Below are positions 44,922-58,231 of a stretch of 64,000 nucleotides of DNA, one piece after another. The notes beneath the pieces were generated by a model. That model made no database searches. It had not been told where the DNA came from and worked only from the letters and a program-made list of their open reading frames with translations. Position 1 is the stretch's first letter. The number at the start of each line of letters is the position of its first letter. Made by a program: the position numbers and the translations under genes. This stretch comes from Clostridia bacterium (GTDB taxonomy: Bacteria; Bacillota; Limnochordia; DTU080; RSA5): assembly GCA_002919235.1 (NCBI GenBank), contig PKEX01000008.1:138530-202529 (forward strand). Reading direction: 5' to 3'.

Positions 44922-47900
44922 ATGAACCTGGTGCGGCTTTCGGTCCGGCGGCCCGTCGCCGCCTCCATGGCCGTGGCGGTCCTGGTCTTGTTTGGCGCCG
45001 TGGCGCTCCAAGGGATGCCGGTCGATCTCCTTCCCGACGTTGAACTCCCCATTGCCGCCGTGGTCACCATCTATCCCGGGGCGGATCCCGCCACGGTCGA
45101 GGCCGCCGTGACCGCGCCCCTCGAAGACGTGATCGCGACCGTGCCGGGCCTGGTGCGGCTCCGCTCCACCAGCGCGGAAAACGTTTCCATCATCACCGCG
45201 GAGTTTTCGTGGAAAGCCGACCTCCAGGAGTCCTTGAAGCAGCTGGAAAACAACGTGGCCGTCGCCGCCAGCTTTCTCCCGGCGGGGATCGAACGGCCCG
45301 TGGTGCTCAGGACCGATCCCAGCCAGTACCCGGTGCTGATGGTGGCGGTCTCCGGGCCCGGAGACGCCGTCCAGGTGACGCGGGCGGTGGAAAGCTACGT
45401 AAAACCCCGGCTGCAGCAGCTGCCCGGCGTTGCGGCCGTGCAGGTGCTGGGCGGCGCCTACGAAGAGATCGCCGTGCGCTACGACTCCGAAGCCCTGCGG
45501 CAGTACGGCATCACCCCCGCCCTGCTCCAGCAGGTGATCGCCGCGCAAAACCTGGTGGTGCCCGCCGGCAGCGCAGTGGACGAGGGCGTCCGCTACCACG
45601 TGAAAGCGGGCCAAGTCTTCACGGACCTGGAAACCCTGCGAAACCAGCCGGTGGCGCTGCGGCAGGTGTCACAGGAGCCGCTCTTTCCCGGGCTGCTCGC
45701 CGCCAGCCAGGCGATCCCGGTTCGCCTCAGGGAGGTCGCCGACGTCGAAGTGGTGGAACGGCCCCGGGAGGGCCTCACCCGGGTGAACGGCGAGCCCGCG
45801 GTGATCCTGCGCGTCCTCAAGCAGAGCGGGGCCAACACGGTCGCCGTCTCAAGGAGCGTCCGCGCCCACCTGGCCCAGCTAGAGCGCGAATCGGAGCTGC
45901 GCTTTCACCCCCTCACCGACCACGCAGACCTCATCGGCACGTCGCTGGGGAACCTCTCCTCCTCCGCGGCCATCGGGGCGGCCCTGGCCGCCGGCGTGCT
46001 CCTCTTTTTCTTGCGGAGCCTCGGCTCCGTGATGGTCATCGGCGTCGCCATCCCTCTCTCCATCGCCGGGGCGTGGGTCATCCTGCGCAGTTTCGGCGTG
46101 ACGCTGAACATGATGAGCCTGGGCGGCCTCGCCCTGGCCGTCGGCATGCTGGTGGACAACTCCATCGTCGTGCTGGAGAACATCGTCCGCCACCGGCAGC
46201 TGGGCAAGAGCCGCCTTGAGGCCGCTGAGGCGGGCGGCAGCGAGATCGCCGGCGCGATCGTCGCCTCCACCCTCACCACCGTGGTGGTCTTCCTCCCCAT
46301 CCTGTTCGTCGACAGCCTGGCGGGGGTTCTCTTTCGCGACACTGGGATCGCCGTGGCCGCGTCGCTCCTGGTCTCGGTGGCCGTGGCGCTGACGGTGGTG
46401 CCGCTGGCGGCGTCGCGCTGGACCGGCCTTTCCCAAAGGCGTGCTCCCGCCGCGTCCCGCTCTCCGGAACCGGCGGCCTCCGCAGGCGTCTTGGCCGGGG
46501 CCGCGCTGGAGGCGGCCGCCGCCTCCGAACTGCCCGGTGCCCCGCCCGCCGGGGCCCTGCGGCTGCACCGCCGGCTCCTGGAAGCGTATGAGAAAGCGCT
46601 GGCGGCTTGGACGCGAAGGCCCGCCGCCACCCTGGCCGCCCTGGCCCTGTGCCTCGCGCTGATCCTCTTTGTTCCCGGCCGATTGGAAACCGAGTTTCTT
46701 CCCGCCACCGACGGCGGGCTGATCGTCGTCAACCTGCGGATGCCCGCAGGATGGAGCCCCGAGCAGGTACAGCGGCACGTGGTCGAGCTGGAACAGGCGA
46801 TCCTCTCCCTCCCCGAGGTGGAGACCGTGGCCACGCTGGCAGGCGATCAGGGGGCGGAGGACCTGCTGGCCCGGGTAAGCGCCTTGGGGACCAACGAAGC
46901 CCAGCTCACCGTCGTCCTCCATCCCTTGAGCACCGGCCGCCGCTCCTCCCATCAGGTGGCGGAAGCCATCTTCGCCCTCCCCCGGGATCCGGCGGTCGAG
47001 ATGGCGATCGAGTCGGACCGCACCGCCTTCGCGCTGGGGGACGACTTCTATCCCGGCCTCACCGTAGAGTTCAGCGGGCCGGACCTGGCGGTGCTGGAGC
47101 AGCTCGCGGCCGGATGGGCGGAGCTGCTGGCCGGGACCGGAGGCTTTAAGAACGTCACCTCTACCGTGCGCCCCGGCGCGCCGGAGCTCTTCTTCCGGGT
47201 GACCGAGCGGAGCTTCCAAGGGATGCTCGGCGGCGGCGAGCCGCTCACCGCGGGGCAGGTGGGCTTGGCCCTGCGCCAGCACTTGACCGGCGTCACCGCG
47301 ACCCACGTCACCCTCGACGGCCAGCGCCTCCCCGTGGTGCTGCGGCCTTCGGCCGACGAGGTCGAAAGCCTCGACTCCATCCGCGCCTTCCGGGTCCCCG
47401 GCGCGCAGCTCACCTCGGCAGGAGGCCAGCCCATCCTCGACCGCATCGCCCAGGTCCTGGAAGGCGAGTCGCAAGGAGCGATTCTACGGCGGGACCGGGT
47501 GCGGGTGGCCACGGTCCGGGCGGAGCTGGACGGCATCGGCCTCGGGGAGGCCAAGGCGCGGGCGGAGCGCCTCCTGTCCAGCTTCCCCCTGCCCGCAGGG
47601 TATCAGGCGCAGATCACCGGCATCCACCGGGTGATCGACGACTCTCTGGGCGAGCTGGGCTGGGTGCTGGTCGTCGCCGTCGCCCTGGTGTACGCGGTGA
47701 TGGCGGCTCAATTTGAATCCCTGGGGCAGCCCCTCGTCATCATGGTGACCGTGCCCCTGGCCGCTTCGGGAGCGCTGCTGGCCCTCTGGTGGAGCGGCCG
47801 CGCTCTGGGCGTGCCCTCCTTGATCGGCATCGTGCTGCTGTGCGGGGTGGCCGTAAACAACGCCATCGTCATGATCGACGCCGTCAATCAGCTGCGGCGC

Positions 47901-48149
47901 AGCGGCGTCGATCCCGTGGAGGCCGTCCACCGGGGCGCGGCGCAGCGGCTGCGGCCCATCCTGATGACCTCCATCACCACCGTGTTCGCCTTGATTCCCC
48001 TGATGTTCGCCGCTGGAAACGGGAGCGAGCTTCAGGGACCGATGGCGGTCGCGGTCATGGGCGGCCTGGTCTCGTCCACCGGGCTCACGCTCTTCGTCAT
48101 CCCCGGGCTGCTGGTCATGGCGGCCCGCCGCCCGATCTCCAGGGCGTAA
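44922..48149 (+). CDS. RND-superfamily efflux transporter permease (HAE1/AcrB-like)
   Basis: 1075 aa with 12 TM helices and two large loops (AcrB topology). The N-terminus MNLVRLSVRRPVAASMAVAVLVLFG is typical. Confidence 0.85.
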   Translation: MNLVRLSVRRPVAASMAVAVLVLFGAVALQGMPVDLLPDVELPIAAVVTIYPGADPATVEAAVTAPLEDVIATVPGLVRLRSTSAENVSIITAEFSWKADLQESLKQLENNVAVAASFLPAGIERPVVLRTDPSQYPVLMVAVSGPGDAVQVTRAVESYVKPRLQQLPGVAAVQVLGGAYEEIAVRYDSEALRQYGITPALLQQVIAAQNLVVPAGSAVDEGVRYHVKAGQVFTDLETLRNQPVALRQVSQEPLFPGLLAASQAIPVRLREVADVEVVERPREGLTRVNGEPAVILRVLKQSGANTVAVSRSVRAHLAQLERESELRFHPLTDHADLIGTSLGNLSSSAAIGAALAAGVLLFFLRSLGSVMVIGVAIPLSIAGAWVILRSFGVTLNMMSLGGLALAVGMLVDNSIVVLENIVRHRQLGKSRLEAAEAGGSEIAGAIVASTLTTVVVFLPILFVDSLAGVLFRDTGIAVAASLLVSVAVALTVVPLAASRWTGLSQRRAPAASRSPEPAASAGVLAGAALEAAAASELPGAPPAGALRLHRRLLEAYEKALAAWTRRPAATLAALALCLALILFVPGRLETEFLPATDGGLIVVNLRMPAGWSPEQVQRHVVELEQAILSLPEVETVATLAGDQGAEDLLARVSALGTNEAQLTVVLHPLSTGRRSSHQVAEAIFALPRDPAVEMAIESDRTAFALGDDFYPGLTVEFSGPDLAVLEQLAAGWAELLAGTGGFKNVTSTVRPGAPELFFRVTERSFQGMLGGGEPLTAGQVGLALRQHLTGVTATHVTLDGQRLPVVLRPSADEVESLDSIRAFRVPGAQLTSAGGQPILDRIAQVLEGESQGAILRRDRVRVATVRAELDGIGLGEAKARAERLLSSFPLPAGYQAQITGIHRVIDDSLGELGWVLVVAVALVYAVMAAQFESLGQPLVIMVTVPLAASGALLALWWSGRALGVPSLIGIVLLCGVAVNNAIVMIDAVNQLRRSGVDPVEAVHRGAAQRLRPILMTSITTVFALIPLMFAAGNGSELQGPMAVAVMGGLVSSTGLTLFVIPGLLVMAARRPISRA

Positions 48150-48365
48150 TCCCGCCCGGCATCGTCCCGCCCGCGGGGTCCCCTCCCGCGGGCGGACCGC
48201 GCAAGCCTCCGAAAGCCCCCTCCGGGGCGACTCGATCCTCCTCCCCGTGGGCACCGGTTCCCCGACCGCAGCATCGCCCCACGGCCGCCCGCTCACTCTC
48301 CGCACATAACCGTTTTCCTGCCAGCGCATCCTAAGAGTAGCCGCTCCCGCGAGGAGGGTTTCCCC

Positions 48366-48716
48366 TTGTCGATGACTGGGCACAGCATCTTCGGGATCTT
48401 CCAGCACCCGCAAGCCGCCCGCGACGCCGCCCGCCTCCTGCGCCAGGCGGGCTTCTCCCGGATCTGGCTCGAGCCCGCGGACTCTCACCTCGACGCAGAC
48501 CTGCATGTCCCGGGCCCGGAGATGGAGGCGCTTTACAGCTGGACCCCGGACACTGCGGTACACGGAGGCCTGGAGCCCCACGGCGCCGGCGGCTGGCCAT
48601 CGCCCGGAGCGGCTTCGCAGTGGTTCGTGGTCACCGAGACGGACGGGAGCGACACCCAGATTGAGCGGGCGGTGAAGATCATCAAGCTGCACGGCGGGCA
48701 CGTGGCGGAGACGTAA
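48366..48716 (+). CDS. YflT-like general stress protein (DUF1269)
   Basis: The SIFGIFQHPQAARDAARLLRQAGF N-terminal pattern resembles the YflT family. TTG/ATG start follows GAGGAGGG. Confidence 0.45.
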   Translation: MSMTGHSIFGIFQHPQAARDAARLLRQAGFSRIWLEPADSHLDADLHVPGPEMEALYSWTPDTAVHGGLEPHGAGGWPSPGAASQWFVVTETDGSDTQIERAVKIIKLHGGHVAET

Positions 48717-48743
48717 TCTCACGCAGAGGAGGAACCGTTCGTC

Positions 48744-48992
48744 ATGGCCGAGTGGCTTTTCTGGTGGACCCTGGCCGCCATGCTTTGGCTGGGCCACTGG
48801 TCCGGGGTCGGCGTGTTTCTCTCGGAGTTCAGCCGGGCCGCCGCGCTCTCGGGCGCCGCCGCGCTGATGATCCCGGGCTCCATCGAGGCGCAGCTTCACC
48901 TCTTCCTGGCCGCCGCTCTGGCCCAGTGTGTCCTAGCCCGCCTGGTTCGCACCCGCCGCCCGCCCGCACCCCACCGGCCGCCCCGGGGGTGA
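48744..48992 (+). CDS. Small membrane protein (82 aa)
   Basis: Two hydrophobic helices. The stop overlaps the GTG start of the PBP gene (GTGA). Confidence 0.5.
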   Translation: MAEWLFWWTLAAMLWLGHWSGVGVFLSEFSRAAALSGAAALMIPGSIEAQLHLFLAAALAQCVLARLVRTRRPPAPHRPPRG

Positions 48993-51061
48993 AGCCGGTG
49001 CCTCTGCGGCGCCGCCTTGCCTCGGCCGTTTTTCTCCTGCTGCTGGCGGCCGTGCTGGCGACGGCGGCGCGCGGGTACTTCCTCCTCCGCCGTTTTGAAT
49101 CGGAGAGAGTTTTCGCCGGCGCGGCGCTGCTCGACATCGACGGGAACGTCTTCGCCACGGCCGGGAAAGGAGCCGGTCTCTACGTGCCGTTGGACGGCGT
49201 CCCGCCGCACGTGGTCGACGCCGTCGTGGCCATTGAGGACGCCCGCTTCTGGCAGCACCCGGGGCTCGATCCCATCGGCATCGCCCGGGCGCTCCTCGTC
49301 AACCTGCGCCGGGGGCGCCCCGCGCAAGGCGCCAGCACCATCACCCAGCAGCTGGCCCGCAACCTCTTCCTCACGCCTGAAAAGACGATCCTCCGCAAAG
49401 TGCAGGAAGCCGTCTACGCCCTGGTCCTGGAAGCCCGCTACAGCAAGCAGGAGATCCTGGAGCTCTACCTCAACGAGGCGTATTTCGGCGAAGGGGCCTA
49501 CGGCATCGCGGCGGCCTCCCAGGTCTACTTCGGCAAGCCGGCGGAAAGCCTCACGCTGGCCGAAGGAGCGCTCCTGGCCGGCCTGCTCCAGGCGCCTTCC
49601 CGCTACACGCCGTACCGCAACCCCGAAGGCGCCCGCGACCGGCGCGACGTGGTCCTGGCCCGCATGGAGGAGCTGGGAATGATCGGGCCCCGGGAGCGGG
49701 CGGCGGCACAGCAGGAGCCGGTCGCCTTGGCCCCGCGGCGGGCGGGCAGGGCTCCCTACTTCGCCGACTACGTCGCCGCGTGGCTGCGGGAGCGTTTCGA
49801 CGCCGCCACCCTTTCCCGGGCCGGGCTGCGGGTGCGCACCACCCTGGACCCCCGGGTGCAGGAGGCCGCCGAGAAAGCCCTGGGGGATCACCAGGGGGCC
49901 ATCGTGGTCCTGGACGTGGCCACCGGAGCGATCCGGGCGATGGTGGGCGGCCGGGATTACCGGGAGAGCCAGTTCAACCGGGCGGTGGATGCGGTGCGCC
50001 AGCCCGGATCGGCGTTCAAGCCCTTCGTCTTCGCGGCCGCCCTGGAGCGGGGCTGGCAGATGAACCACCTGGTCGAGGATGTGCCCCGCTCCTACGGAGG
50101 GTATGCGCCCCGCAACTTCCGCGACGAGTACTGGGGCCCCGTCACCATGAAGCAGGCCTTGTCCCGCTCCCTCAACAACGGCGCCGTATGGCTCCTGCGG
50201 GAGATTGGCGTCACCGCCGGGGTGGAGATGGCGGAACGCTTGGGCATCTCCACCCTGACCCCCGACGACCGCCACCTGGGGTTGGCTTTGGGCGGGCTCA
50301 AGTACGGGACGACGCCGCTGGAGATGGCCGCCGCGTACCTTCCCTTCGCCAGCGGGGGCATCCGGCGGGAGCCCTTCGCTGTCCTGGAGGTGACGGATGC
50401 TTCAGGCAAGGTGTACTACCGCCACCGCCCGGCGTCCCGCCGGGTGCTGTCGGAAGAGGTGGCCTACTTCATCACCGACATGCTGCGGGAGGCGGTGGAG
50501 CGGGGCACCGGGACTGCGGCCGCCATCGGACGGCCGCAGGCGGGCAAGACCGGCACCGCCGACCACCAGGTCAGCGCGTGGTTCGTCGGCTACACCCCGG
50601 AGCTGGTGGCCAGCGTGTACGTGGGAAACGACGACGGCTCGCCTCTTTCCGGAGGCGGCGGAACGCTGGCGGCGCCCATCTGGGGCCGGTTGATGGCGGA
50701 AGCCCTTCGCGGCCGGCCCGTTCAGGATTTCCCGGTGCCCGACTACGTCGTCACGAGCGTGCCCGTCGACTTTCGCACCGGGCTCCTGGCCGGCGAGGGC
50801 TGTCCCCACCGGGAGATGGACGCCTTCGTGGTGGGACGGGCCCCCACCGAGTATTCCCCTTGCGCCTGGACCCGGGTGAACCCCCCGCCGGATGCCGGCC
50901 CCCTGCCCGGCCCCGCCGCGGATCCCGGGGCAGGTGCCGAGCGAGAAGCCGGAGAGCCCCTGCCGCCCGGCCAGTCCCGCCCCGGAGACAGATGGGAGGA
51001 TTATCCAGAAATCCCCCTCCCTCAAGGAGGCTCTGTCTCCAGAATGTCGAATTCTATCTAA
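48989..51061 (+). CDS. Class A penicillin-binding protein (transglycosylase plus transpeptidase) with Pro-rich C-terminal tail
   Basis: GT51 motifs EDARFWQHPG and GASTITQQ. Transpeptidase motifs SAFKPF, SLNN and KTGT. N-terminal TM anchor. Confidence 0.85.
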   Translation: MKPVPLRRRLASAVFLLLLAAVLATAARGYFLLRRFESERVFAGAALLDIDGNVFATAGKGAGLYVPLDGVPPHVVDAVVAIEDARFWQHPGLDPIGIARALLVNLRRGRPAQGASTITQQLARNLFLTPEKTILRKVQEAVYALVLEARYSKQEILELYLNEAYFGEGAYGIAAASQVYFGKPAESLTLAEGALLAGLLQAPSRYTPYRNPEGARDRRDVVLARMEELGMIGPRERAAAQQEPVALAPRRAGRAPYFADYVAAWLRERFDAATLSRAGLRVRTTLDPRVQEAAEKALGDHQGAIVVLDVATGAIRAMVGGRDYRESQFNRAVDAVRQPGSAFKPFVFAAALERGWQMNHLVEDVPRSYGGYAPRNFRDEYWGPVTMKQALSRSLNNGAVWLLREIGVTAGVEMAERLGISTLTPDDRHLGLALGGLKYGTTPLEMAAAYLPFASGGIRREPFAVLEVTDASGKVYYRHRPASRRVLSEEVAYFITDMLREAVERGTGTAAAIGRPQAGKTGTADHQVSAWFVGYTPELVASVYVGNDDGSPLSGGGGTLAAPIWGRLMAEALRGRPVQDFPVPDYVVTSVPVDFRTGLLAGEGCPHREMDAFVVGRAPTEYSPCAWTRVNPPPDAGPLPGPAADPGAGAEREAGEPLPPGQSRPGDRWEDYPEIPLPQGGSVSRMSNSI

Positions 51062-51112
51062 ATCGAACAGCGTTTCTTGCAGAGCCGTTTCCGGGGGGAG
51101 GCAGCGCGCGCG

Positions 51113-52360
51113 ATGGCGGCGCCCTTGAGGTTCTGGGTGCTCACGACTGCCGGCCCGGCGTCCGTGCAGCCCATCAGCCGGATGATCGAAGCTTTTTCCA
51201 GGCGCAGCGGCGTGCCGGTGGAACTCCGGGCCATTCCGTGGGGCCGGGGGTGGAGGGCGCTGACCCGGGCCATCAAGAGGCGGGACCTTCCCGACGTCAT
51301 GCACATCGGGTCGACGTGGATCGCGACCCTGGCCCATCTCGATCTGCTGGCGGAAGCGCCCCGCGGCGTGTGGACGCAGCCGACCGTCGCCCCGTGGGTG
51401 GACGAGGCCGCATTGGCGGGCGGCGTCGCCTGGGCCGTGCCGTGGACGGTGGAGTGCAACGTCCTCATCGGCCGCACCGATCTCCTGGAAGCGGCGGGGG
51501 TGGCGCCCGAAGAGTTTTCCGACTGGGACGGCTTTCTCCAGGTCTGCCGGCGCCTCGACGGCATGGGGCGCTCCGGGGACGGCCCGCTCAAAGGCATCCT
51601 CCCCGTGGCCGTCCACTCCCGGCCGGACTCCGTCACCCTCCACTGGGCGACGCCGTGGCTCTGGTCCGGCGGGTGGCGGCTGGACCGAGAGACACTGGTC
51701 CACGGCGTGGTGCTCCGCGACGAGAGCGCCGAGCCGGGGCTGCAGTTTATCGCGGAGCTTTTCAAGACCAGCCCACTGCTGCCGGAGATGGCCGATACGT
51801 CCAGCTTCCGCGTGGCGCTGGACTTCTTTGAGGCCGGCCGGTACGTCTTTTACTCCAGCCATTCGGTGCACTTTTTCAGACCGCTGGTGCAGGCAGGCCC
51901 CGGTGAACGCCCGTCCCGCTGGCCCATGGCCATGTTTCCGCTGCCCCGGGGCCCGGCCGGATCCCTGACGCGCGGGGGCGGCTCGTTTCTGGCCGTCTCC
52001 CGGACGTCGAAGCAGCCGGCCGTCGCATGGGAGCTGGTCCGCTTTCTCACCGAGGACCAGCAGCTGACGGAGCTGGCCCTGGTCACCGGAGAGCTGCCCG
52101 CGCTCCAGGGCACCTTTTGGAGCCAGTACGCGCACCACCCGGCCCACCGGGAGGTCTTACAGATGCTGCGCAACGCCCGGGCCTATCCCCCGCACCCGCT
52201 GTGGCGGACGGTAGAGTCGCTGCTGGTGAACGGGATCGGCGAGATCTGCTGGCGATTTGCCCGCGGCCAGGGATACGACGCCGCCCTGCAGTCTTTGACG
52301 GCTCAAATCGATCAGCGGATCCAGAACCTACTTCGACTCGGCTGGGAGGTGTCGGCGTGA
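51113..52360 (+). CDS. Extracellular-solute-binding-protein-like (SBP_bac_1 / MalE-like fold) protein with no evident signal peptide
   Basis: ATG at 51113 lies 11 nt after GGGGGGAGG. The sequence matches sugar-SBP family patterns but the N-terminus is not hydrophobic. The stop overlaps the downstream GTG (GTGA). Confidence 0.6.
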   Translation: MAAPLRFWVLTTAGPASVQPISRMIEAFSRRSGVPVELRAIPWGRGWRALTRAIKRRDLPDVMHIGSTWIATLAHLDLLAEAPRGVWTQPTVAPWVDEAALAGGVAWAVPWTVECNVLIGRTDLLEAAGVAPEEFSDWDGFLQVCRRLDGMGRSGDGPLKGILPVAVHSRPDSVTLHWATPWLWSGGWRLDRETLVHGVVLRDESAEPGLQFIAELFKTSPLLPEMADTSSFRVALDFFEAGRYVFYSSHSVHFFRPLVQAGPGERPSRWPMAMFPLPRGPAGSLTRGGGSFLAVSRTSKQPAVAWELVRFLTEDQQLTELALVTGELPALQGTFWSQYAHHPAHREVLQMLRNARAYPPHPLWRTVESLLVNGIGEICWRFARGQGYDAALQSLTAQIDQRIQNLLRLGWEVSA

Positions 52361-53775
52361 GGCTCGTCGATCCCACCCAGGCCGCCGCTTTGGGCGCCCG
52401 GGCCGGCCTGGCCCTTTGCCAAGGCGACGCGACGTACCGGGCGTTTTGGCGGGCCGCCGAGGTGATCCTGCAGCCTCTTTCCCACACCTTCGAACAAGTG
52501 AGCATTTTCGTCGCCGACCCGCAGGAGGACGTGTTCCACGAGGAAGCCATCGCCGGTCCCGACGGCGGCCAAGGCTCGGACGAGCTTCCCATGTACCAGC
52601 TCCCCGACGCCCTGCTCAAGGACGGCCGGGTGGTGGAACGCTCCCGGGGCCCCTACCGCCAGCTGCTGGCCCCCATCCGCCTGGCCGGCCAGCTCATCGG
52701 GCTCTTGTCGCTCACATCCCGGGCTGGCGCCACCCCGGCGCAGCTGGACGCGGTGGCCGCGCTGGCCGATGCGCTGGCTCCGGGCGTCGGGTACGCGTTG
52801 CAGCGGCGCGCGGCGGAGCAGGCTCTCTCCGTGATGCACGCGGCGGCCAAGATGAGCCGGGAACTGGTGGGGGTCAGCGGGTTTTCTCCCGACCGCCTCC
52901 TCTACCGGTTCGTCTCCCTGGTGGTGGAACAGCTCAAATTCGACCGGGCGACGCTGGTGGTCTTCTCCGAAGAACAGGCGGCGCCGGCCCGGGTCATCTG
53001 CGCGTCCCTGGGACGTCCTCCCACCGAGATCAACCCTGAGCGGCTGCCGCCTATCCCGCATCTGATCACCGACGATCCTCTTCCGGTGCAGGACGTGCCG
53101 GGGGTGTGGATCCCCATCAACTTAGGCCGGCAGCGGCTGGGAGCGCTGCTCGCGGACAACCTGTACTCCCTGGAGACGCCGTCCCGGGAGACCATCCAGT
53201 CGCTCATCGATCTCACGGGCCAGGTGGCGCTCTCGCTGGAAAACGTCCGCCTGTTCGAACGGCTTCAGGCCATGGCGCTGCGCGACGACCTCACGGGCCT
53301 CTTCCGTCCCGGGTACTTTTACGAACGGCTCCAGGAGGAACTGGCCCGCCTTGAGCAGGATGGCGAGCCCGCGGCGCTGATCTTCATCGACCTGGACGAT
53401 TTCAAGGCCGTCAACGACACCTACGGCCACCGGGCGGGCGACGCCTTGCTGGTGCAGGTGGCTCAGGAGCTCAAGTCGGGACTTCGGCCCCGCGACGTGG
53501 TCTGCCGCATGGGCGGGGACGAGTTCATCGTCTTCCTCCCCCGGGTGAAAGAGACGGACGCCGTGGCCATCGCGCAGCGGGTCTGCGACCGGATCGCCCG
53601 CAAGGAGTACGTCCTCCCCGACGGGGCACGGGCGCGCGTCCGGGTCAGCGCCGGGGTCTCTCTCTACCCCCAGAACGCCCGCGACTGGCAGAAGCTGATC
53701 CACCGCGCCGACCAGGCTATGTATTTCGCCAAGCGCAGCGGCAAGGGGCGGGTGTACACCGCTGCGCTCACGTGA
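52357..53775 (+). CDS. Diguanylate cyclase with two GAF domains and an intact GGDEF domain
   Basis: RMGGDEFIV active-site motif. Inhibitory site RxxD (RPRD). GTG at 52357 lies 6 nt after GGGAGGTG. Confidence 0.8.
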   Translation: MRLVDPTQAAALGARAGLALCQGDATYRAFWRAAEVILQPLSHTFEQVSIFVADPQEDVFHEEAIAGPDGGQGSDELPMYQLPDALLKDGRVVERSRGPYRQLLAPIRLAGQLIGLLSLTSRAGATPAQLDAVAALADALAPGVGYALQRRAAEQALSVMHAAAKMSRELVGVSGFSPDRLLYRFVSLVVEQLKFDRATLVVFSEEQAAPARVICASLGRPPTEINPERLPPIPHLITDDPLPVQDVPGVWIPINLGRQRLGALLADNLYSLETPSRETIQSLIDLTGQVALSLENVRLFERLQAMALRDDLTGLFRPGYFYERLQEELARLEQDGEPAALIFIDLDDFKAVNDTYGHRAGDALLVQVAQELKSGLRPRDVVCRMGGDEFIVFLPRVKETDAVAIAQRVCDRIARKEYVLPDGARARVRVSAGVSLYPQNARDWQKLIHRADQAMYFAKRSGKGRVYTAALT

Positions 53776-53807
53776 GCCGGTGCCGGGACCGCCCAAATGG
53801 AGGAAGA

Positions 53808-53837
53808 AAAAACCCGCCCCCTTTCCGGAGCGGGTTT
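53808..53837. terminator. Bidirectional intrinsic terminator (AAACCCGC...GCGGGTTT hairpin flanked by an A-tract and a T-tract)
   Basis: Sits between convergent genes: the diguanylate cyclase gene and rpsI. Confidence 0.7.
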
Positions 53838-53857
53838 CGCGGCGTTCCGTCTCCAAA

Positions 53858-54259
53858 TCAGCGTTTCGAGAACTGGGGTGCCTTGCGGGCCTTCTTGAGG
53901 CCGTACTTGCGGCGCTCCTTCATACGGGGATCGCGCGTCAAAAACCCGGCCCGCTTCAAGGGGACCCGGAACTCGGGATCCACGTCGAGAAGGGCCCGCG
54001 CGATGCCGTGCCGGATCGCCCCCGCCTGGCCGGCTGGACCGCCGCCTCTCACGATGGCGATGACGTCATAGCGGTCCTCCACCTTCACCGTCGCCAGGGG
54101 AGCGCGGACCATATGCTCCAGGATCGGCCGGTTGAAATACTCCTCCAGCGTCTTGCCGTTGATGATGATCCGACCGTTTCCAGGAACCAGGCGGACCCGG
54201 GCCACTGCCGTCTTGCGCCGGCCGGTGCCGTAAAGCTGCTCCGTAGCGATGGCCATCAC
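53858..54259 (-). CDS. rpsI: 30S ribosomal protein S9
   Basis: [19 protein letters not shown]...[16 protein letters not shown]. Confidence 0.95.
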
Positions 54260-54275
54260 AAGCCTCCTTTCCTAA

Positions 54276-54713
54276 CTAGCCCTCGACAGCGACGGGCTCA
54301 GGCTTTTGCGCCTCATGGGGATGATCGGGTCCAGCGTACACCTTGAGCTTGCGGAACTGCCTCCGGCCCAGCCGGTTATGGGGGAGCATTCCCCAGACGG
54401 CCAGCTCCACCATGCGTTCGGGCTGGGTCTCGAGCATCTGGGCCGCCGTGCGCATCTTCAAGCCGCCGGGATACCGCGAGTGCCGGTAATAGATCTTCTG
54501 CTCGCGCTTTTTCCCGGAGAGGCGGACCTGGCTGGCGTTGACGACGATCACGTAGTCCCCGCTGTCAATGTGGGGCGTGTAGGTAGGCTTGTGCTTGCCC
54601 CGCAAGATCGCGGCCACCTGGCTTGCCAGGCGCCCGAGCGTCTTTCCCCGGGCGTCGACGATGTACCACTTCTTGTCGACGTCCTGCTCCTTTGCCATGT
54701 ATGTCCGTTGCAA
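54276..54713 (-). CDS. rplM: 50S ribosomal protein L13
   Basis: [38 protein letters not shown] start at 54713 (5 nt after GAGGGGGAAG) gives the MQRTYMAK N-terminus like B. subtilis L13. Alternative ATG at 54698. Confidence 0.92.
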
Positions 54714-54832
54714 CGCGTCTTCCCCCTCAGCTTGCGTCTGCCAGATCCCGTTCGACGTCACGGGGGATCGAAGGGAAAGCGGCAGCCATGACCCTAGGCA
54801 TAGTCCGCGTTCCATTCTAATATACGGCGAAT

Positions 54833-55621
54833 CTAAGTGTCAAGGCGAAGACCCTGTCTCTCCCCCGGCGTCCCCGGCGGGTAAGCCACCCACATGAGCG
54901 TCAGCCCTTTGCCGGGAAGCGTGGGCCCTGCCATCCGGCGGTCTTTGGAAGCCAGCACCTCCCGCACCCACTCGGGATCCCGCTTGCCCTTGCCCACCTC
55001 TACCAGAGTCCCGGCGATGATTCGCACCATGTGAAAGAGAAAGCCGTCGGCCTCCAAGGTGATGGCCACCAGGCCGTCCCGGGCCGTGACGTCGCAGCGG
55101 GTCACCGTCCGCACCGTGCTGCGCCCGGCGTGGCCGGAGCCGGCAAAGGCCTTGAAGTCGTGGCGCCCTACCAGGTACTGGGCGGCCCGGTCCATCGCCT
55201 CGACGTCCAAAGGGCGGGAGACGAAGTGGGTGTAGTGCCGCAGCAGGGGCGAGGGAAACGGGCGGTTGTCGATGCGGTAGACGTACTGCTTCGCCACCGC
55301 CCAGTAACGGGCGTGAAACTCCAGCGGCACCTCGACCGCCCCTACTACCCGGATGTCCGGCGGCAGCACGCCGTTCATCGCGTAGGGGACTCGCTCCGCC
55401 GGGATGGCGTCCGAGGCGGTCCTGAAGTTGACCACCTGTCCTTCCGCATGCACCCCGGCATCGGTCCGGCCGGCGCCGATCACCTTCACGCGCTCGCCCA
55501 CCAGGCGTTCCCACGCCCGCTCCAGCTCCCTTTGGATGGTGGGGCGGTCACTGAGGCCCTGGTCCTGAAAACCGTGGTAGTGGGTGCCGTCGTACGCCAC
55601 CGTCAGCTTCAGGTTCCGCAC
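54833..55621 (-). CDS. truA: tRNA pseudouridine(38-40) synthase
   Basis: [10 protein letters not shown] and [11 protein letters not shown] (catalytic Asp) motifs. GTG start at 55621. Confidence 0.9.
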
Positions 55622-55761
55622 CGTGCCGTCCTCACCCCGTCCCGGAAGCCCCCCGCCGCACAGGGCCGCGCCGGCGGCACGCACGACAAAAGCGGCGGAA
55701 GCTCCGCCGCCCTGCCTTCCCCTGTGCGATCACGCCCGGCAAAACGCCCCGCGCCCGGCGG

Positions 55762-56100
55762 TCAGACCAGCTCCAAGATGGACATGGGCGCGGCGTCTCC
55801 CCGGCGCGGTCCGAGCTTGAGCAGCCGGGTGTATCCGCCGCTGCGATCCCGGTAGCGGGGCGCCACCTCGTCAAACAGCTTGCGAACCGCTTCAGGGTTG
55901 TTGAGAAACGCCGCCGCTTGCCGCCTTGCGTGCAGATCGCCCCGCTTGCCCAGGGTGATCATCTTGTCCACCAGCGGCTTGGCCGCCCTAGCCTTCCCTT
56001 CGGTCGTCTGGATCCTCCCATGGAGCACGACGGATGCCACAAGCCCGCGCAGCACCGCCTTGCGGTGCCCCTGGGTGCGTCCGAGCTTTTGCAAGGCCAT
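55762..56100 (-). CDS. rplQ: 50S ribosomal protein L17
   Basis: [14 protein letters not shown]...[15 protein letters not shown]. Confidence 0.95.
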
Positions 56101-56143
56101 GGCGACGACCTCCTTCTTCTGAAAATCATACCGGCACGACCCT

Positions 56144-57085
56144 TCAGTCGTCCGACGAGCGCAGGCTCAGGTTGAGCGCTGCCAGCTTTTCCTTGACTTC
56201 CTGGAGCGACTTCTTCCCCAGGTTCCTTACCTTCATCATGTCCTCTTCGGTCCTGCGGACGAGCTCCTCCACGGTGTTGATCCCCGCCCGCTTCAAGCAG
56301 TTGTACGAGCGGACCGAAAGATCCAGCTCTTCGATGGTCATCTCCAGGAGGCGGTTGCGCTCCTCGTCTTCCTTTTCGACCATGATCTCGACGCCCTCGG
56401 TGTTCTCGCCGAGGCCCACGAAGATCCGCAAATGCTCCGTGAGGATCTTGGCCGAAAGGCTCACCGCCTCGTTGGGAGCGATGCTGCCGTCCGTCCACAC
56501 CTCGAGGATCAGCCGGTCAAAGTCGGTCTGCTGCCCGACCCGGGTGTCTTCCACCTTGAAGTTCACCCGGCGCACCGGCGTAAAGATCGAGTCCACCGCG
56601 ATGACGCCGATGGGCTGGTCCGGCTTCTTGTTGCGGTCCGCGGAGACGTACCCCCGCCCCTTCGCCACGGTCACCTCCATCTCGAGCCGTCCGTCCTTCG
56701 CCAGCGTCGCGATGTGGAGGTCCGGGTTGAGGATCTCGACGGTGCTCGGCGTCTCGAAGTCGCCCGCGGTCACCTCGCCCTCGCCCTCGGCCACAAGGCG
56801 GATGGTGGCGGGCTCGTCCTGGTGGAGCTTGACCAGGAGCTCCTTCAGGTTGAGGATGATCTCGGTGGTGTCCTCCACCACGCCCTTAATCGTGGAAAAC
56901 TCGTGCAGCACGCCGTCGATGCGGACCGAGGTCACCGCCGCCCCCGGAAGGGACGAGAGCAGGATGCGCCTGAGAGAGTTGCCGAGCGTGATCCCATACC
57001 CGCGCTCGAGCGGTTCGACGACAAACCTCCCGTAGGTCTCGGTCATCTCTTCCGTCTCGATCTTGGGCTTCTGAATTTCGATCAT
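56144..57085 (-). CDS. rpoA: DNA-directed RNA polymerase alpha subunit
   Basis: [14 protein letters not shown] and the C-terminal domain [14 protein letters not shown]. Confidence 0.95.
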
Positions 57086-57175
57086 AGTCCCGAAACCCTC
57101 CTTGTCGTGACGAGTAGGAGACGGCGAACGCCCGGCCCGCATCATCCCGCGCGCCCGTCTCGCTCACGTCATGGA

Positions 57176-57805
57176 CTACCGGGAGTAGTGCTCGACGATG
57201 AGGTGCTCCTGCACGCGCACGTCGATCTGCTCGCGCGTGGGCAGGCTCTTCACGGTCCCTTTCAGGCCGTCCGCATCCAGCTCTAGCCAATCCGGCACGC
57301 CCCGGCTCTGAGCCGCCTGGACGCTCTCCTTGATCATCGCGATGTTCCGGCTGCGCTCCCGGACGGCGATGACGTCGCCCACCTTCACCCGCGCCGACGG
57401 GATATCCATCTTCTTCCCGTTCACCGTGAAGTGACCGTGCATCACCAGCTGCCGGGCCGCAGCGCGCGAAGGCGCGAAGCCCAGCCGGTAGACCACGTTG
57501 TCCAGCCGGCACTCCAAGAGCTGCAGGAGGGTTTCGCCCGTCACGCCCTTGCGGCGGGACGCCTCCTGGTAATAACGCCGAAACTGGCGCTCCAGCACCC
57601 CGTAGATCCTGCGCAGCTTCTGCTTCTCACGCAGGTGGATGCCGTATTCAGTCAAACGCGGGCGCCGTCCCTGGCCGTGCTGGCCCGGCGGATACGGGCG
57701 GCGGTCCACGGGGCACTTCTCAGTATAGCACTTTTCACCCTTCAAAAAGAGCTTTTCTCCCTCACGCCGGCACAGCCGGCAAACGGGTCCAGTATACCTT
57801 GCCAT
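57176..57805 (-). CDS. rpsD: 30S ribosomal protein S4
   Basis: [16 protein letters not shown]... Confidence 0.95.
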
Positions 57806-57835
57806 CGCTCAGTCTTCCACCTCCGCCGGCTCCGC

Positions 57836-58231
57836 TCAGACCCGCCGCCGCTTGGGCGGGCGGCAACCGTTGTGAGGAATCGGGGTGACGTCTTTGATCA
57901 AGTTCACTTCGAGACCGGCAGCCTGGAGCGAACGGATAGCCGCCTCCCGGCCCGACCCGGGCCCCTTCACGTAGACCTCGATCTCCCGGACCCCATGCTC
58001 CATGGCGGCCCTTGCCGCCGCCTCCGCCGCCATGCTCGCCGCAAAGGGCGTCCCTTTGCGCGATCCCTTAAAGCCCTGGCTTCCGGCGGAAGCCCACGTC
58101 AGCACGTTGCCCTGCTTGTCCGTGATGGTCACGATGGTGTTGTTAAACGTCGAACGGATATGCGCGATCCCGACCGGGACGTTCTTCCGTTCCCGCCGGC
58201 GCAGCCGTGTGCCCTTTCTCGGCCTGGCCAA
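57836..58231 (-). CDS. rpsK: 30S ribosomal protein S11
   Basis: [18 protein letters not shown]... Confidence 0.95.

What the first reader, a model, noticed from the sequence alone, without database searches (positions are those of the whole stretch)
51113..53775. Signal-peptide-less SBP-like protein translationally coupled to a GAF-GAF-GGDEF diguanylate cyclase
A 415-aa protein with a MalE/SBP_bac_1-like sequence pattern lacks any hydrophobic leader. It ends in GTGA, overlapping the start of a cytoplasmic diguanylate cyclase with an intact GGDEF and an RxxD I-site. Solute-binding proteins are normally exported components of ABC importers. A cytoplasmic copy coupled to a c-di-GMP synthase suggests a ligand-sensing partner that regulates the cyclase, which is an uncommon two-protein sensor arrangement.
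Basis: partly seen in the sequence, partly recalled or inferred. Interest (0 to 1): 0.55.

Follow-up and report, generated by a model that had tools for sequence, protein, structure and literature searches.

The report
Cytoplasmic sugar-binding-protein homolog paired with diguanylate cyclase
A transporter-type sugar-binding protein that has lost its export signal is encoded back-to-back with a soluble c-di-GMP synthase, and this pair recurs in many uncultured bacteria, which suggests an undescribed way of sensing a sugar inside the cell and turning it into a second-messenger signal.

Summary
Window 51113-52360 encodes a 415-aa SBP_bac_1/SBP_bac_8 protein. An in-frame TAA 17 codons upstream leaves no room for a signal peptide. 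Its stop overlaps (GTGA) the start of a 472-aa soluble GAF-like/GAF-like/GGDEF cyclase (52357-53775) with an intact GGDEF motif and an RxxD I-site.

The organism is a Limnochordia (Bacillota) MAG. The pair is not a local oddity. In 23 of 27 independent leaderless-SBP lineages (30-68% GC, unrelated housekeeping neighbourhoods), the same sensor-GGDEF gene follows directly, usually with a 4- or 8-nt overlap. In 0 of 27 leader-bearing relatives does it follow (p=3e-11); those sit next to ABC permeases or glmS. One leader-bearing relative instead precedes a two-TM HAMP-GGDEF protein, so the compartments of the two partners match.

About half of the 150 best family representatives lack a leader, and these are Cys-rich. 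The closest solved relative is the Thermus β-glycoside-binding protein. Its ligand-contact residues W41 and W67 are retained across the family, and E117 among the close relatives.

Best reading: a cytoplasmic Venus-flytrap carbohydrate sensor acts in trans on the cyclase. Physical interaction and ligand are inferred, not shown. I found no description of this in the literature. It is a new variant of SBP-controlled c-di-GMP signalling.

The parts
51059..51061 (+). In-frame TAA that closes the SBP reading frame upstream. It is also the stop codon of the PBP1A gene (48752-51061).
   Evidence: Only 17 codons are open before ATG 51113, so there is no room for a signal peptide.
51093..51101 (+). Shine-Dalgarno-like GGGGGAGG, 11 nt before the SBP start codon.
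   Evidence: The equivalent GGAG (read as 'GGE' in frame) precedes the conserved start in homologs.
51113..52360 (+). Leaderless SBP_bac_1/SBP_bac_8 protein of 415 aa, the predicted cytoplasmic Venus-flytrap sensor.
   Evidence: Pfam. PDB profile hit to Thermus beta-glycosides-binding protein, E 8e-50. Foldseek E 1e-22. Hydropathy. Family alignment.
52344..52349 (+). GGGAGG Shine-Dalgarno for the cyclase. It lies inside the conserved C-terminal LGWE/G codons of the SBP, 7 nt before GTG 52357.
   Evidence: The homolog junctions have the same layout.
52357..52360 (+). GTGA start/stop overlap, indicating translational coupling.
   Evidence: A 4-nt overlap is seen in 13 lineages, 8-nt in 4, and 11-nt in 1; the remaining four have gaps of 1, 5, 25 and 35 nt.
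52357..53775 (+). Soluble diguanylate cyclase of 472 aa: GAF-like, helix, GAF-like, helix, GGDEF.
52357..52731 (+). GAF-like domain 1 (residues ~1-125).
   Evidence: AF2 model secondary structure. Weak Pfam GAF match at residues 95-141.
52879..53181 (+). GAF-like domain 2 (residues ~175-275), preceded by a long helix (127-173).
   Evidence: Homolog L052 matches GAF_3 at E 2e-14 in this position.
53185..53277 (+). Helical linker (residues 277-307) leading into GGDEF, the presumed signalling helix.
   Evidence: The best whole-chain fold analog is the phytochrome-linked cyclase IsPadC, 5llw.
53275..53748 (+). GGDEF catalytic domain (residues 307-464).
   Evidence: Pfam PF00990 E 3e-45 and TIGR00254 E 4e-50.
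53485..53496 (+). RPRD I-site (R377-D380), five residues before GGDEF.
   Evidence: RxxD is present in all 21 paired cyclases.
53512..53526 (+). GGDEF active-site motif (G386-F390).
53809..53838 (-). GC-rich hairpin between the cyclase stop and the convergent rpsI gene. It is terminator-like on the minus strand.

Best explanation
The locus is a self-contained two-gene cytoplasmic signalling module.

Gene 1 is a homolog of carbohydrate ABC-transporter solute-binding proteins (beta-glycoside/cellodextrin group). It has lost its export signal and its transporter, and it stays in the cytoplasm.

Gene 2 is translationally coupled to gene 1. It encodes a soluble diguanylate cyclase whose sensor part is two GAF-like domains joined by long helices to an active GGDEF domain with a product-inhibition I-site.

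Proposed mechanism (inferred): the SBP binds a small cytoplasmic carbohydrate-like ligand and closes like a Venus flytrap. One of its two conformations docks on the GAF-GAF module of the cyclase dimer. This shifts the helical linker and so the geometry of the two GGDEF domains, switching c-di-GMP synthesis. The I-site caps output.

Shown here:
- Both proteins lack export and membrane signals.
- The catalytic and I-site motifs are intact.
- The pairing is conserved, and the two families co-diverge.
- Sugar-contact residues are conserved.

Inferred: physical contact, direction of regulation (activation or inhibition), ligand identity, and downstream output.
For: Leaderless and soluble:
- The stop-bounded frame and hydropathy rule out a leader.
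- None of the 21 paired cyclases has a TM segment.
- Leaderless family members carry 4.3 Cys per protein, against 1.3 in mature exported relatives (p=6e-13).

Conserved pairing:
- Close relatives pair in the same synteny.
- Pairing also occurs in other contexts.
- A metagenome scan of 80 loci with custom HMMs gave 23 of 27 leaderless lineages followed by the same sensor-GGDEF gene, against 0 of 27 leader-bearing ones, p=3e-11.
- Junctions overlap by 4, 8 or 11 nt, or have gaps of at most 35 nt.
- No recurrent third gene and no ABC parts lie nearby.

Compartment matching:
- Leader-bearing relatives precede permeases or glmS.
- One of them precedes a 2-TM HAMP-GGDEF protein.

Co-divergence and a split pair:
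- SBP and sensor identity matrices correlate at r=0.96.
- In one lineage, an orphan SBP and an orphan cyclase come from the same sample with matching composition.

Ligand competence:
- The best PDB relative is Thermus beta-glycosides-binding protein.
- Its mutated ligand residues W41, W67 and E117 align with W43, W69 and E114.
- W43, D61, W69, W111, H177, W182, GGS289-291, W364 and E368 are as conserved in the leaderless proteins as in exported relatives.

Cyclase competence:
- GGDEF and RxxD are present in 19 of 21 pairs; the other two have GGDE[I/M] with RxxD kept.
- The DxD, KxxND and GD residues are invariant.
Against: - There is no direct evidence of SBP-cyclase contact. No multimer model could be run.
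- Co-divergence (r=0.96) is also what shared vertical descent would give.
- Four leaderless lineages (L004/5, L008, L063, L074) lack an adjacent cyclase, so the SBP can exist unlinked.
- The SBP model is only moderate (pLDDT 72). Its least confident stretches are the family-specific motifs 167-188 and 278-286, so the pocket geometry is uncertain.
- The W177 position of the Thermus protein is not conserved, so the ligand may differ from beta-glucosides.
- The GAF domains could bind their own ligand and be the real sensor.
- All members come from uncultured organisms; there are no expression or phenotype data.
Confidence: 0.6

Rival explanations
1. Ligand-independent regulatory subunit. The SBP-like protein has become a structural partner (activator, inhibitor or scaffold) of the cyclase. 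The input signal is sensed by the cyclase's own GAF domains or set by expression level, and the SBP cleft no longer binds a metabolite.
For: - Tight translational coupling suggests a stoichiometric complex.
- GAF domains are classical small-molecule sensors, and the fold resembles phytochrome-type sensor cyclases.
- Family-specific invariant motifs (RPDxxTLHWATPWLWSGGW, LPLPRGPAGS) replace the lid region that includes W177 of the Thermus protein.
- There is precedent for a protein activator of a cyclase: SiaC-SiaD, 7e6g.
Against: Canonical cleft residues (W43, W69, W364, E368, GGS289-291) are under the same constraint in leaderless proteins as in transport SBPs, down to 20-25% identity. That is hard to explain without ligand binding.
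Confidence: 0.15
2. Co-transcribed but functionally separate. The leaderless SBP does something else in the cytoplasm, such as buffering or chaperoning a sugar or a metabolic role, and merely shares an operon with an independently regulated cyclase.
For: - Four leaderless lineages have no adjacent cyclase.
- About 1% of SBP-profile proteins are reported as cytosolic with alternative functions (PMC9602780).
Against: - The adjacency survives complete turnover of the neighbourhood and a GC range of 30-68%.
- This particular sensor-cyclase family is found almost only next to the SBP: 9 of 10 relatives.
- Compartment matching holds with the TM-HAMP-GGDEF variant.
Confidence: 0.12
3. It is an ordinary exported SBP after all. 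Either the start codon is mis-called or export is non-classical, and the protein acts outside the cell.
For: - Public annotations call it 'extracellular solute-binding protein'.
- One gene call uses the 427-aa TTG start (P0180).
Against: - An in-frame stop lies 17 codons upstream, and the 12-aa TTG extension is charged.
- In more than 15 other lineages the open frame begins 0-25 codons before the first beta-strand.
- No permease or ATPase genes are nearby.
- Cys enrichment is typical of cytoplasmic proteins.
- The partner cyclase has no membrane segment to receive an outside signal.
Confidence: 0.03

Closest known systems
NspS-MbaA (Vibrio cholerae) and ScrB-ScrC (V. parahaemolyticus): SBP-controlled GGDEF-EAL enzymes
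   Same: A stand-alone SBP homolog with no transporter of its own is encoded next to a c-di-GMP enzyme and controls it by protein-protein contact. NspS is also SBP_bac_8 (review PMC8050422).
   Different: - Those SBPs are periplasmic and have signal peptides.
- Their receptors are membrane proteins with a periplasmic dCache-like domain and GGDEF-EAL output.
- Here both proteins are cytoplasmic, the receiver is a GAF-GAF module, and the output is GGDEF only.
- A true periplasmic analog in the same SBP clade is seen at L078/L079: leader SBP plus 2-TM HAMP-GGDEF.
Thermus thermophilus beta-glycosides-binding protein (PDB 7c63-7c71) and C. thermocellum CbpB (7x0i)
   Same: - Nearest solved relatives: profile E 8e-50 and 9e-40, with 26-29% identity to the Thermus protein over the full length.
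- Same two-lobe fold.
- W41, W67 and E117 equivalents are conserved.
   Different: - Those are exported components of ABC importers for cello-, laminari- and sophoro-oligosaccharides (PMC9601137).
- The window protein has no leader and no permease.
- It has a different lid motif in place of the W177 region.
- It has extra conserved Cys residues.
SiaC-SiaD (Pseudomonas aeruginosa; PDB 7e6g)
   Same: A soluble cyclase switched by binding of a separate cytoplasmic protein partner. Its GGDEF domain is among the structural hits.
   Different: SiaC is a small partner-switch protein controlled by phosphorylation, not a ligand-binding SBP. SiaD has a coiled-coil stalk rather than GAF-GAF.
IsPadC, phytochrome-activated diguanylate cyclase (PDB 5llw)
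   Same: Best whole-chain fold match (E 3e-23). It has tandem GAF-type sensor domains, then a long helical linker, then GGDEF.
   Different: Its sensor binds biliverdin in cis and has a PAS domain. There is no separate binding-protein partner. TM-score is low (0.43) because the domain arrangement differs.
LacI/GalR and LysR-type regulators (periplasmic-binding-protein fold used as a cytoplasmic effector sensor)
   Same: They show that the SBP/PBP fold can serve as an intracellular small-molecule sensor (established knowledge).
   Different: Those are fused in cis to a DNA-binding domain and belong to other PBP families (Peripla_BP_1, LysR_substrate). Here a full-length CUT1-type SBP works in trans on an enzyme.

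Membership tests
Pfam SBP_bac_1 / SBP_bac_8 (class II solute-binding fold) | Significant match to the family profile over the whole two-lobe domain | tested here: met
   E 5.5e-18 and 5.2e-19, above the gathering score. Foldseek TM 0.64-0.69 to solved SBPs.
ABC-importer solute-binding protein (functional class) | N-terminal Sec/Tat signal peptide or lipobox for export | tested here: not met
   A stop codon lies 17 codons upstream. Maximum KD(10) is 1.3, against 2.9 in classical relatives. The same holds in all family members.
ABC-importer solute-binding protein (functional class) | Genomic association with permease (BPD_transp_1) and ATPase genes | tested here: not met
   None in the window neighbourhood and none among 59 neighbour ORFs of 16 paired loci. 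By contrast, 12 of 27 leader-bearing relatives have a permease as the next gene.
ABC-importer solute-binding protein (functional class) | Ligand-binding cleft residues retained | tested here: inconclusive
   W43, W69 and E114 align with Thermus W41, W67 and E117, and the core residues are as conserved as in exported relatives. The W177 position is lost and the model is of low confidence at the lid. No binding assay was possible.
Diguanylate cyclase (GGDEF, PF00990 / TIGR00254) | GG[D/E]EF active-site motif plus metal- and GTP-binding residues (DxD, KxxND, GD) | tested here: met
   GGDEF at 386-390. D345, D347, K350, N353, D354 and D362 are invariant in the family.
Diguanylate cyclase (GGDEF) | RxxD allosteric I-site five residues upstream of GGDEF | tested here: met
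   RPRD at 377-380. RxxD is present in all 21 paired cyclases.
Diguanylate cyclase (GGDEF) | Enzymatic synthesis of c-di-GMP | not testable with these tools
   Requires an enzyme assay.
GAF domain | Profile match and GAF alpha/beta fold, present twice | tested here: met
   The sequence signal is weak: window E 1.4e-4 at 22.9 bits against a 22.4 cut-off, and 7 of 10 members match. Homolog L052 matches GAF_3 at 2e-14. The AF2 model (pLDDT 88) shows two GAF-like domains. The fold identity of each domain was not separately searched.
NspS-MbaA-type SBP-dependent c-di-GMP switch | SBP gene adjacent to the c-di-GMP enzyme gene, with no transporter | tested here: met
NspS-MbaA-type SBP-dependent c-di-GMP switch | Periplasmic SBP acting on the periplasmic domain of a transmembrane enzyme | tested here: not met
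   The SBP has no leader, and the cyclase has no TM segment.
NspS-MbaA-type SBP-dependent c-di-GMP switch | Direct SBP-enzyme binding that changes activity | not testable with these tools
Biochemistry is needed.

The most novel reading that the evidence does not exclude
A widespread, so far unrecognised class of bacterial signalling. A transporter-derived solute-binding protein is retained in the cytoplasm as a free, trans-acting receptor. It docks on a GAF-GAF diguanylate cyclase and converts the intracellular level of an oligosaccharide-like metabolite into c-di-GMP. This would be the first cytoplasmic counterpart of SBP-dependent receptors. It is present in Bacillota, and family members (pairing not checked there) occur in Spirochaetota and Elusimicrobiota MAGs.
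Probability: 0.5. Interest if true: 0.75.

Novelty: new variant of a known kind. Interest (0 to 1): 0.62.

Why it matters
SBP-dependent activation of receptors is currently described only outside the cytoplasmic membrane (review PMC8050422). SBP-profile proteins without a signal peptide are usually discarded as non-SBPs in surveys (PMC9602780).

A conserved cytoplasmic SBP-cyclase module would have several consequences:
- It would extend the SBP-in-trans sensing principle to the cell interior.
- It would give c-di-GMP networks a new type of metabolic input.
- It would explain a sizeable group of mis-annotated 'extracellular solute-binding proteins'. About half of the best 150 family representatives are leaderless.
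- It would offer a compact two-protein sugar-to-second-messenger switch that could be rebuilt in E. coli as a biosensor.
- It provides a clean natural experiment in how a transport protein is exapted into a signalling protein. The same SBP clade shows exported transporter forms, exported forms paired with a TM cyclase, forms fused to kinases or phosphatases, and cytoplasmic forms.

Tried and rejected
1. Upstream start giving a signal or Tat peptide. Rejected: in-frame TAA at 51059-61, a charged 12-aa extension, and no twin-arginine motif.

2. Genome-contig scan for relatives. It returned only a 288-bp contig in an Algoriphagus assembly, 100% identical to the window and probably contamination. 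It gave no context information.

3. Word-indexed homolog searches under-sampled the family, finding 9-11 hits. The third search, with a 45-sequence profile, added nothing. The exhaustive representative search was what revealed the large leaderless family.

The SBP model built from 9 sequences reached only pLDDT 72, so no pocket geometry was inferred from it.

It was repeated with 16 sequences.

6. Search for a recurrent third gene (transporter, glycosidase, PilZ effector) around 16 paired loci. None was found, only unrelated housekeeping genes.

7. Rfam scan of the window for c-di-GMP riboswitches or other RNAs gave no hit. A PADLOC defence-system scan of both proteins gave no hit.

8. The sigma-70 promoter scan found none, so it is unresolved whether the pair is co-transcribed with the PBP1A gene 51 nt upstream.

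9. Strict monophyly of the leaderless proteins. A rough NJ tree gives about 6 state changes among 133 tips, so they are clustered but not cleanly one clade. Some 'leaderless' tips are probably truncated gene calls.

10. Literature searches for a cytoplasmic SBP with GGDEF found nothing relevant.
Full report
**1. What is in the sequence**

The + strand of window 51113-52360 encodes a 415-aa protein that matches SBP_bac_8 (E 5e-19) and SBP_bac_1 (E 5e-18) over its whole length. No NCBIfam model names it.

Its reading frame is closed 17 codons upstream by TAA 51059-51061. That TAA is also the stop of the preceding class-A penicillin-binding protein gene (Transgly + Transpeptidase), which happens to lie in the same frame. 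The only alternative start, TTG 51077, adds MQSRFRGEAARA.

With either start, the most hydrophobic 10-residue stretch in the N-terminus scores 1.3 on the Kyte-Doolittle scale. Classical relatives P0010 and P0011 score 2.9. The stretch LRFWVL is the first beta-strand of the SBP fold, not a leader. It aligns with residues 4-10 of the mature Thermus protein.

A GGGGGAGG box lies 11 nt before ATG 51113.

The gene ends ...GGCTGGGAGGTGTCGGCGTGA. GTG 52357 starts the next gene, TGA 52358-60 stops the first, and GGGAGG (52344-49) sits 7 nt before the GTG.

The second gene (52357-53775) encodes 472 aa with a C-terminal GGDEF domain (PF00990 E 3e-45; TIGR00254 E 4e-50). It has GGDEF at 386-390 and RPRD at 377-380 (I-site spacing). 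The DxD, KxxND and GD residues are invariant. It has no transmembrane segment.

An AF2 model (pLDDT 88) shows two GAF-like alpha/beta domains (about 1-125 and 175-275). Each is followed by a long helix (127-173, 277-307), and then comes the GGDEF domain. Pfam sees GAF only weakly.

**2. Organism and annotation status**

Identical or near-identical proteins occur in MAGs labelled Limnochordia bacterium or Bacillota bacterium. They are named only 'extracellular solute-binding protein' or 'hypothetical protein'.

The window has 68% GC. The neighbourhood is housekeeping: an AcrB-like pump, two small ORFs, PBP1A, the pair, then convergent rpsI-rplM-truA-rplQ-rpoA-rpsD-rpsK.

**3. The pairing is conserved**

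Close relatives:
- The word-indexed search found eight relatives of the SBP at 39-53% identity.
- Five of them (49-53%) lie in the same synteny and are followed by a GGDEF gene with an ATGA overlap.
- A sixth (43%, L009) has a different upstream context but the same ATGA-coupled GAF-GGDEF gene.

Searching from the cyclase side:
- Searching with the cyclase's sensor region alone found ten relatives.
- Apart from those already seen, three more distant ones (40-43%) each sit directly after a further leaderless SBP in yet other neighbourhoods.
- One (P0019) is unlinked.

The split pair: that orphan cyclase and the orphan SBP P0009 come from the same sample (SRR8272542). They have 53.5% and 54.1% GC and a tetranucleotide correlation of 0.88-0.90. 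This looks like a split pair kept in one genome.

**4. The family is large, and the rule is general**

An exhaustive profile search of 1.84 billion representatives gave 108 proteins at E<1e-30.

- The top ~65 hits all begin M-x(2-8)-L-[RK]-V-W-[IL]-M, which is directly at the first strand.
- Lipoprotein- or signal-peptide-bearing relatives first appear around E 1e-49.
- Among the 124 full-length hits in the best 150 that could be classified, 74 are leaderless and 50 leader-bearing.

A scan of metagenome contigs returned 80 loci. I classified these with custom HMMs for the SBP, the sensor and the GGDEF domain.

- Every leaderless SBP with enough downstream sequence is followed on the same strand by a sensor+GGDEF gene, except L063 and L074.
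- L052's downstream gene is cut by the contig end but already shows a GAF domain.
- Counting independent lineages from all sources, 23 of 27 leaderless SBPs have the partner, against 0 of 27 leader-bearing relatives (Fisher p=3e-11).
- Junctions are a 4-nt overlap in 13 lineages, 8-nt in 4 and 11-nt in 1. The rest have gaps of 1, 5, 25 and 35 nt.
- The loci span 30-68% GC.
- Their other neighbours are unrelated housekeeping genes (holB/tmk, metG/tatD, secA, prfA/prmC, alaS and others). There is no recurrent third gene and no ABC transporter component.

In leader-bearing relatives the next gene is an ABC permease in 12 of 27 cases and glmS in 11 of 27.

One leader-bearing relative (L078/L079) is followed by a GGDEF protein. 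That protein has two TM helices around a ~270-aa outside domain plus HAMP. This is the classical periplasmic layout.

Partner compartments therefore always match. I regard this as the strongest argument that the two proteins work together.

Named members come from Limnochordia, Clostridiales/Caldicoprobacterales (P0199, identical to the SBP of paired loci L031-33), Spirochaetota and Elusimicrobiota MAGs. Pairing was directly verified for the first two groups. The L073 SBP is 58% identical to Spirochaetota proteins and the L054 SBP is 44% identical to an Elusimicrobiota protein.

**5. Independent support for a cytoplasmic location**

Leaderless family members carry a mean of 4.3 Cys, against 1.3 in the mature part of exported relatives (p=6e-13). 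Two Cys residues (C115, C145) are invariant in the close family.

**6. What the SBP may bind**

The nearest solved proteins are:
- Thermus thermophilus beta-glycosides-binding protein: profile E 8e-50, Foldseek E 1e-22, 26-29% identity.
- C. thermocellum cellodextrin-binding CbpB.
- Listeria sophoro-oligosaccharide binder Lin1841.

The Thermus entries include point mutants W41A, W67A and E117A, and a W177 variant, deposited in ligand-binding studies. The alignments place these at window W43, W69 and E114, which are conserved. The W177 position falls in the RPDSVT stretch and is not conserved.

Across 80 leaderless and 50 leader-bearing relatives, the same core positions are conserved to the same degree: W43, D61, W69, W111, H177, W182, G289-G290-S291, W364 and E368. 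Only K55 is specific to the leaderless group.

I therefore expect a functional cleft and a carbohydrate-like ligand. The exact ligand is open, because the family-specific lid motifs (RPDxxTLHWATPWLWSGGW; LPLPRGPAGS) are where the model is least confident.

**7. How it probably works**

Known precedents:
- Periplasmic SBPs that regulate c-di-GMP enzymes in trans: NspS-MbaA and ScrB-ScrC (PMC8050422).
- A cytoplasmic protein activator of a cyclase: SiaC-SiaD, 7e6g.
- Sensor-helix-GGDEF cyclases in which a helical register change sets GGDEF dimer geometry: IsPadC, 5llw, the best whole-chain fold match.

Combining these gives the most likely mechanism. Ligand-induced closure of the cytoplasmic SBP changes its affinity for the GAF-GAF/helix module. 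This alters the linker and thereby cyclase activity, and the I-site limits output.

Translational coupling would deliver the two proteins in fixed ratio. SBP and sensor identities co-vary closely (r=0.96), though shared descent alone could give that.

Steps shown: domain content, localisation signals, motif integrity, conserved pairing, conserved cleft residues.

Steps inferred: contact, sign of regulation, ligand, output.

**8. Rivals**

- A ligand-independent regulatory subunit. The cleft conservation argues against this.
- Two unrelated functions sharing an operon. The persistence of the pair through total context turnover argues against this, as does the near-exclusive association of this sensor family with the SBP.
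- A truly exported SBP. This is excluded by the stop-bounded frames.

**9. Novelty**

Full-text searches found no description of a cytoplasmic SBP paired with a cyclase.

The SBP signalling review lists only extracytosolic systems. A repertoire study notes that about 1% of SBP-profile proteins are cytosolic 'with alternative functions' and filters them out.

I classify the finding as a new variant of a known kind: SBP-dependent control of c-di-GMP enzymes, moved into the cytoplasm and onto a GAF-GAF receiver. It is widespread but so far seen only in uncultured lineages. Interest is 0.62.

Noticed in passing
L001 (JAFIDK010000980.1, 288 bp, Algoriphagus aestuarii KCTC 42199 assembly): A 288-bp contig in a Bacteroidota genome assembly is 100% identical to residues 264-358 of the window's SBP. 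NCBI annotates it as an Algoriphagus protein (MBN3585786.1). This is probably contamination of that assembly by Limnochordia DNA.
   Followed up: partly
L035-L055 (e.g. L038:3857-7108, L042:3842-7062): A tight group of lipoprotein SBP relatives, with leader ...GC(A/G)... followed by VVEMWVMPNSLE, is followed directly by glmS (GATase_6/7 + SIS) in 11 dereplicated loci rather than by ABC permeases. This hints at an amino-sugar link for part of this SBP clade.
   Followed up: partly
P0135 (1180 aa), P0128 (1092 aa): Relatives of the same SBP clade are fused in one chain to dCache plus a SpoIIE phosphatase (P0135, with leader) or to dCache plus HisKA/HATPase (P0128, whose N-terminus starts inside the WIMPN motif and is probably truncated). 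This SBP clade has been recruited into signalling several times.
   Followed up: partly
L078:1574-4734, L079:3-3031: A leader-bearing SBP relative is followed 17 nt later by a two-TM HAMP-GGDEF protein. This is the periplasmic counterpart of the window's cytoplasmic pair.
   Followed up: partly
L004/L005 (SBP P0009) and L012/L013 (cyclase P0019), samples SRR8272536/42/54: An orphan leaderless SBP (next to a TetR gene) and an orphan sensor-GGDEF (after a DEAD helicase gene) share a sample, GC content (53.5% and 54.1%) and tetranucleotide profile (r 0.88-0.90). This is probably one genome in which the pair has been separated but both genes kept.
   Followed up: partly
window 48752-51061 and 51113-52360: The PBP1A gene and the SBP gene are in the same reading frame, separated by a single TAA and 51 nt. 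No promoter-like site was found between them, so the pair may be co-transcribed with the cell-wall synthase gene. PBP1A adjacency is kept in L002 and L003 but not in L006.
   Followed up: partly
window 48366-48716 and 48744-48992; L002:1985-2691, L006:5092-5832: Two small conserved ORFs with no Pfam match lie between the AcrB-like pump gene and PBP1A/SBP in the window and its relatives. One is ~116-127 aa. The other is ~74-82 aa and hydrophobic.
   Followed up: no
window 1-64000: No Rfam family reaches its gathering score anywhere in the 64-kb window, although it contains ribosomal-protein operons where leader RNAs are often found.
   Followed up: no
window 45000-58000: Many long ORFs (100-580 aa) overlap the real genes on the opposite strand or in other frames, for example 50402-52147(-) and 49780-51831(+). 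This is as expected for 68% GC DNA, and they have Arg/Gly/Pro-rich translations. They are treated as spurious.
   Followed up: no
L067:2390-3919, L069:5254-6753: Two paired cyclases carry GGDEI or GGDEM instead of GGDEF and keep RxxD. It is unknown whether they are active.
   Followed up: no
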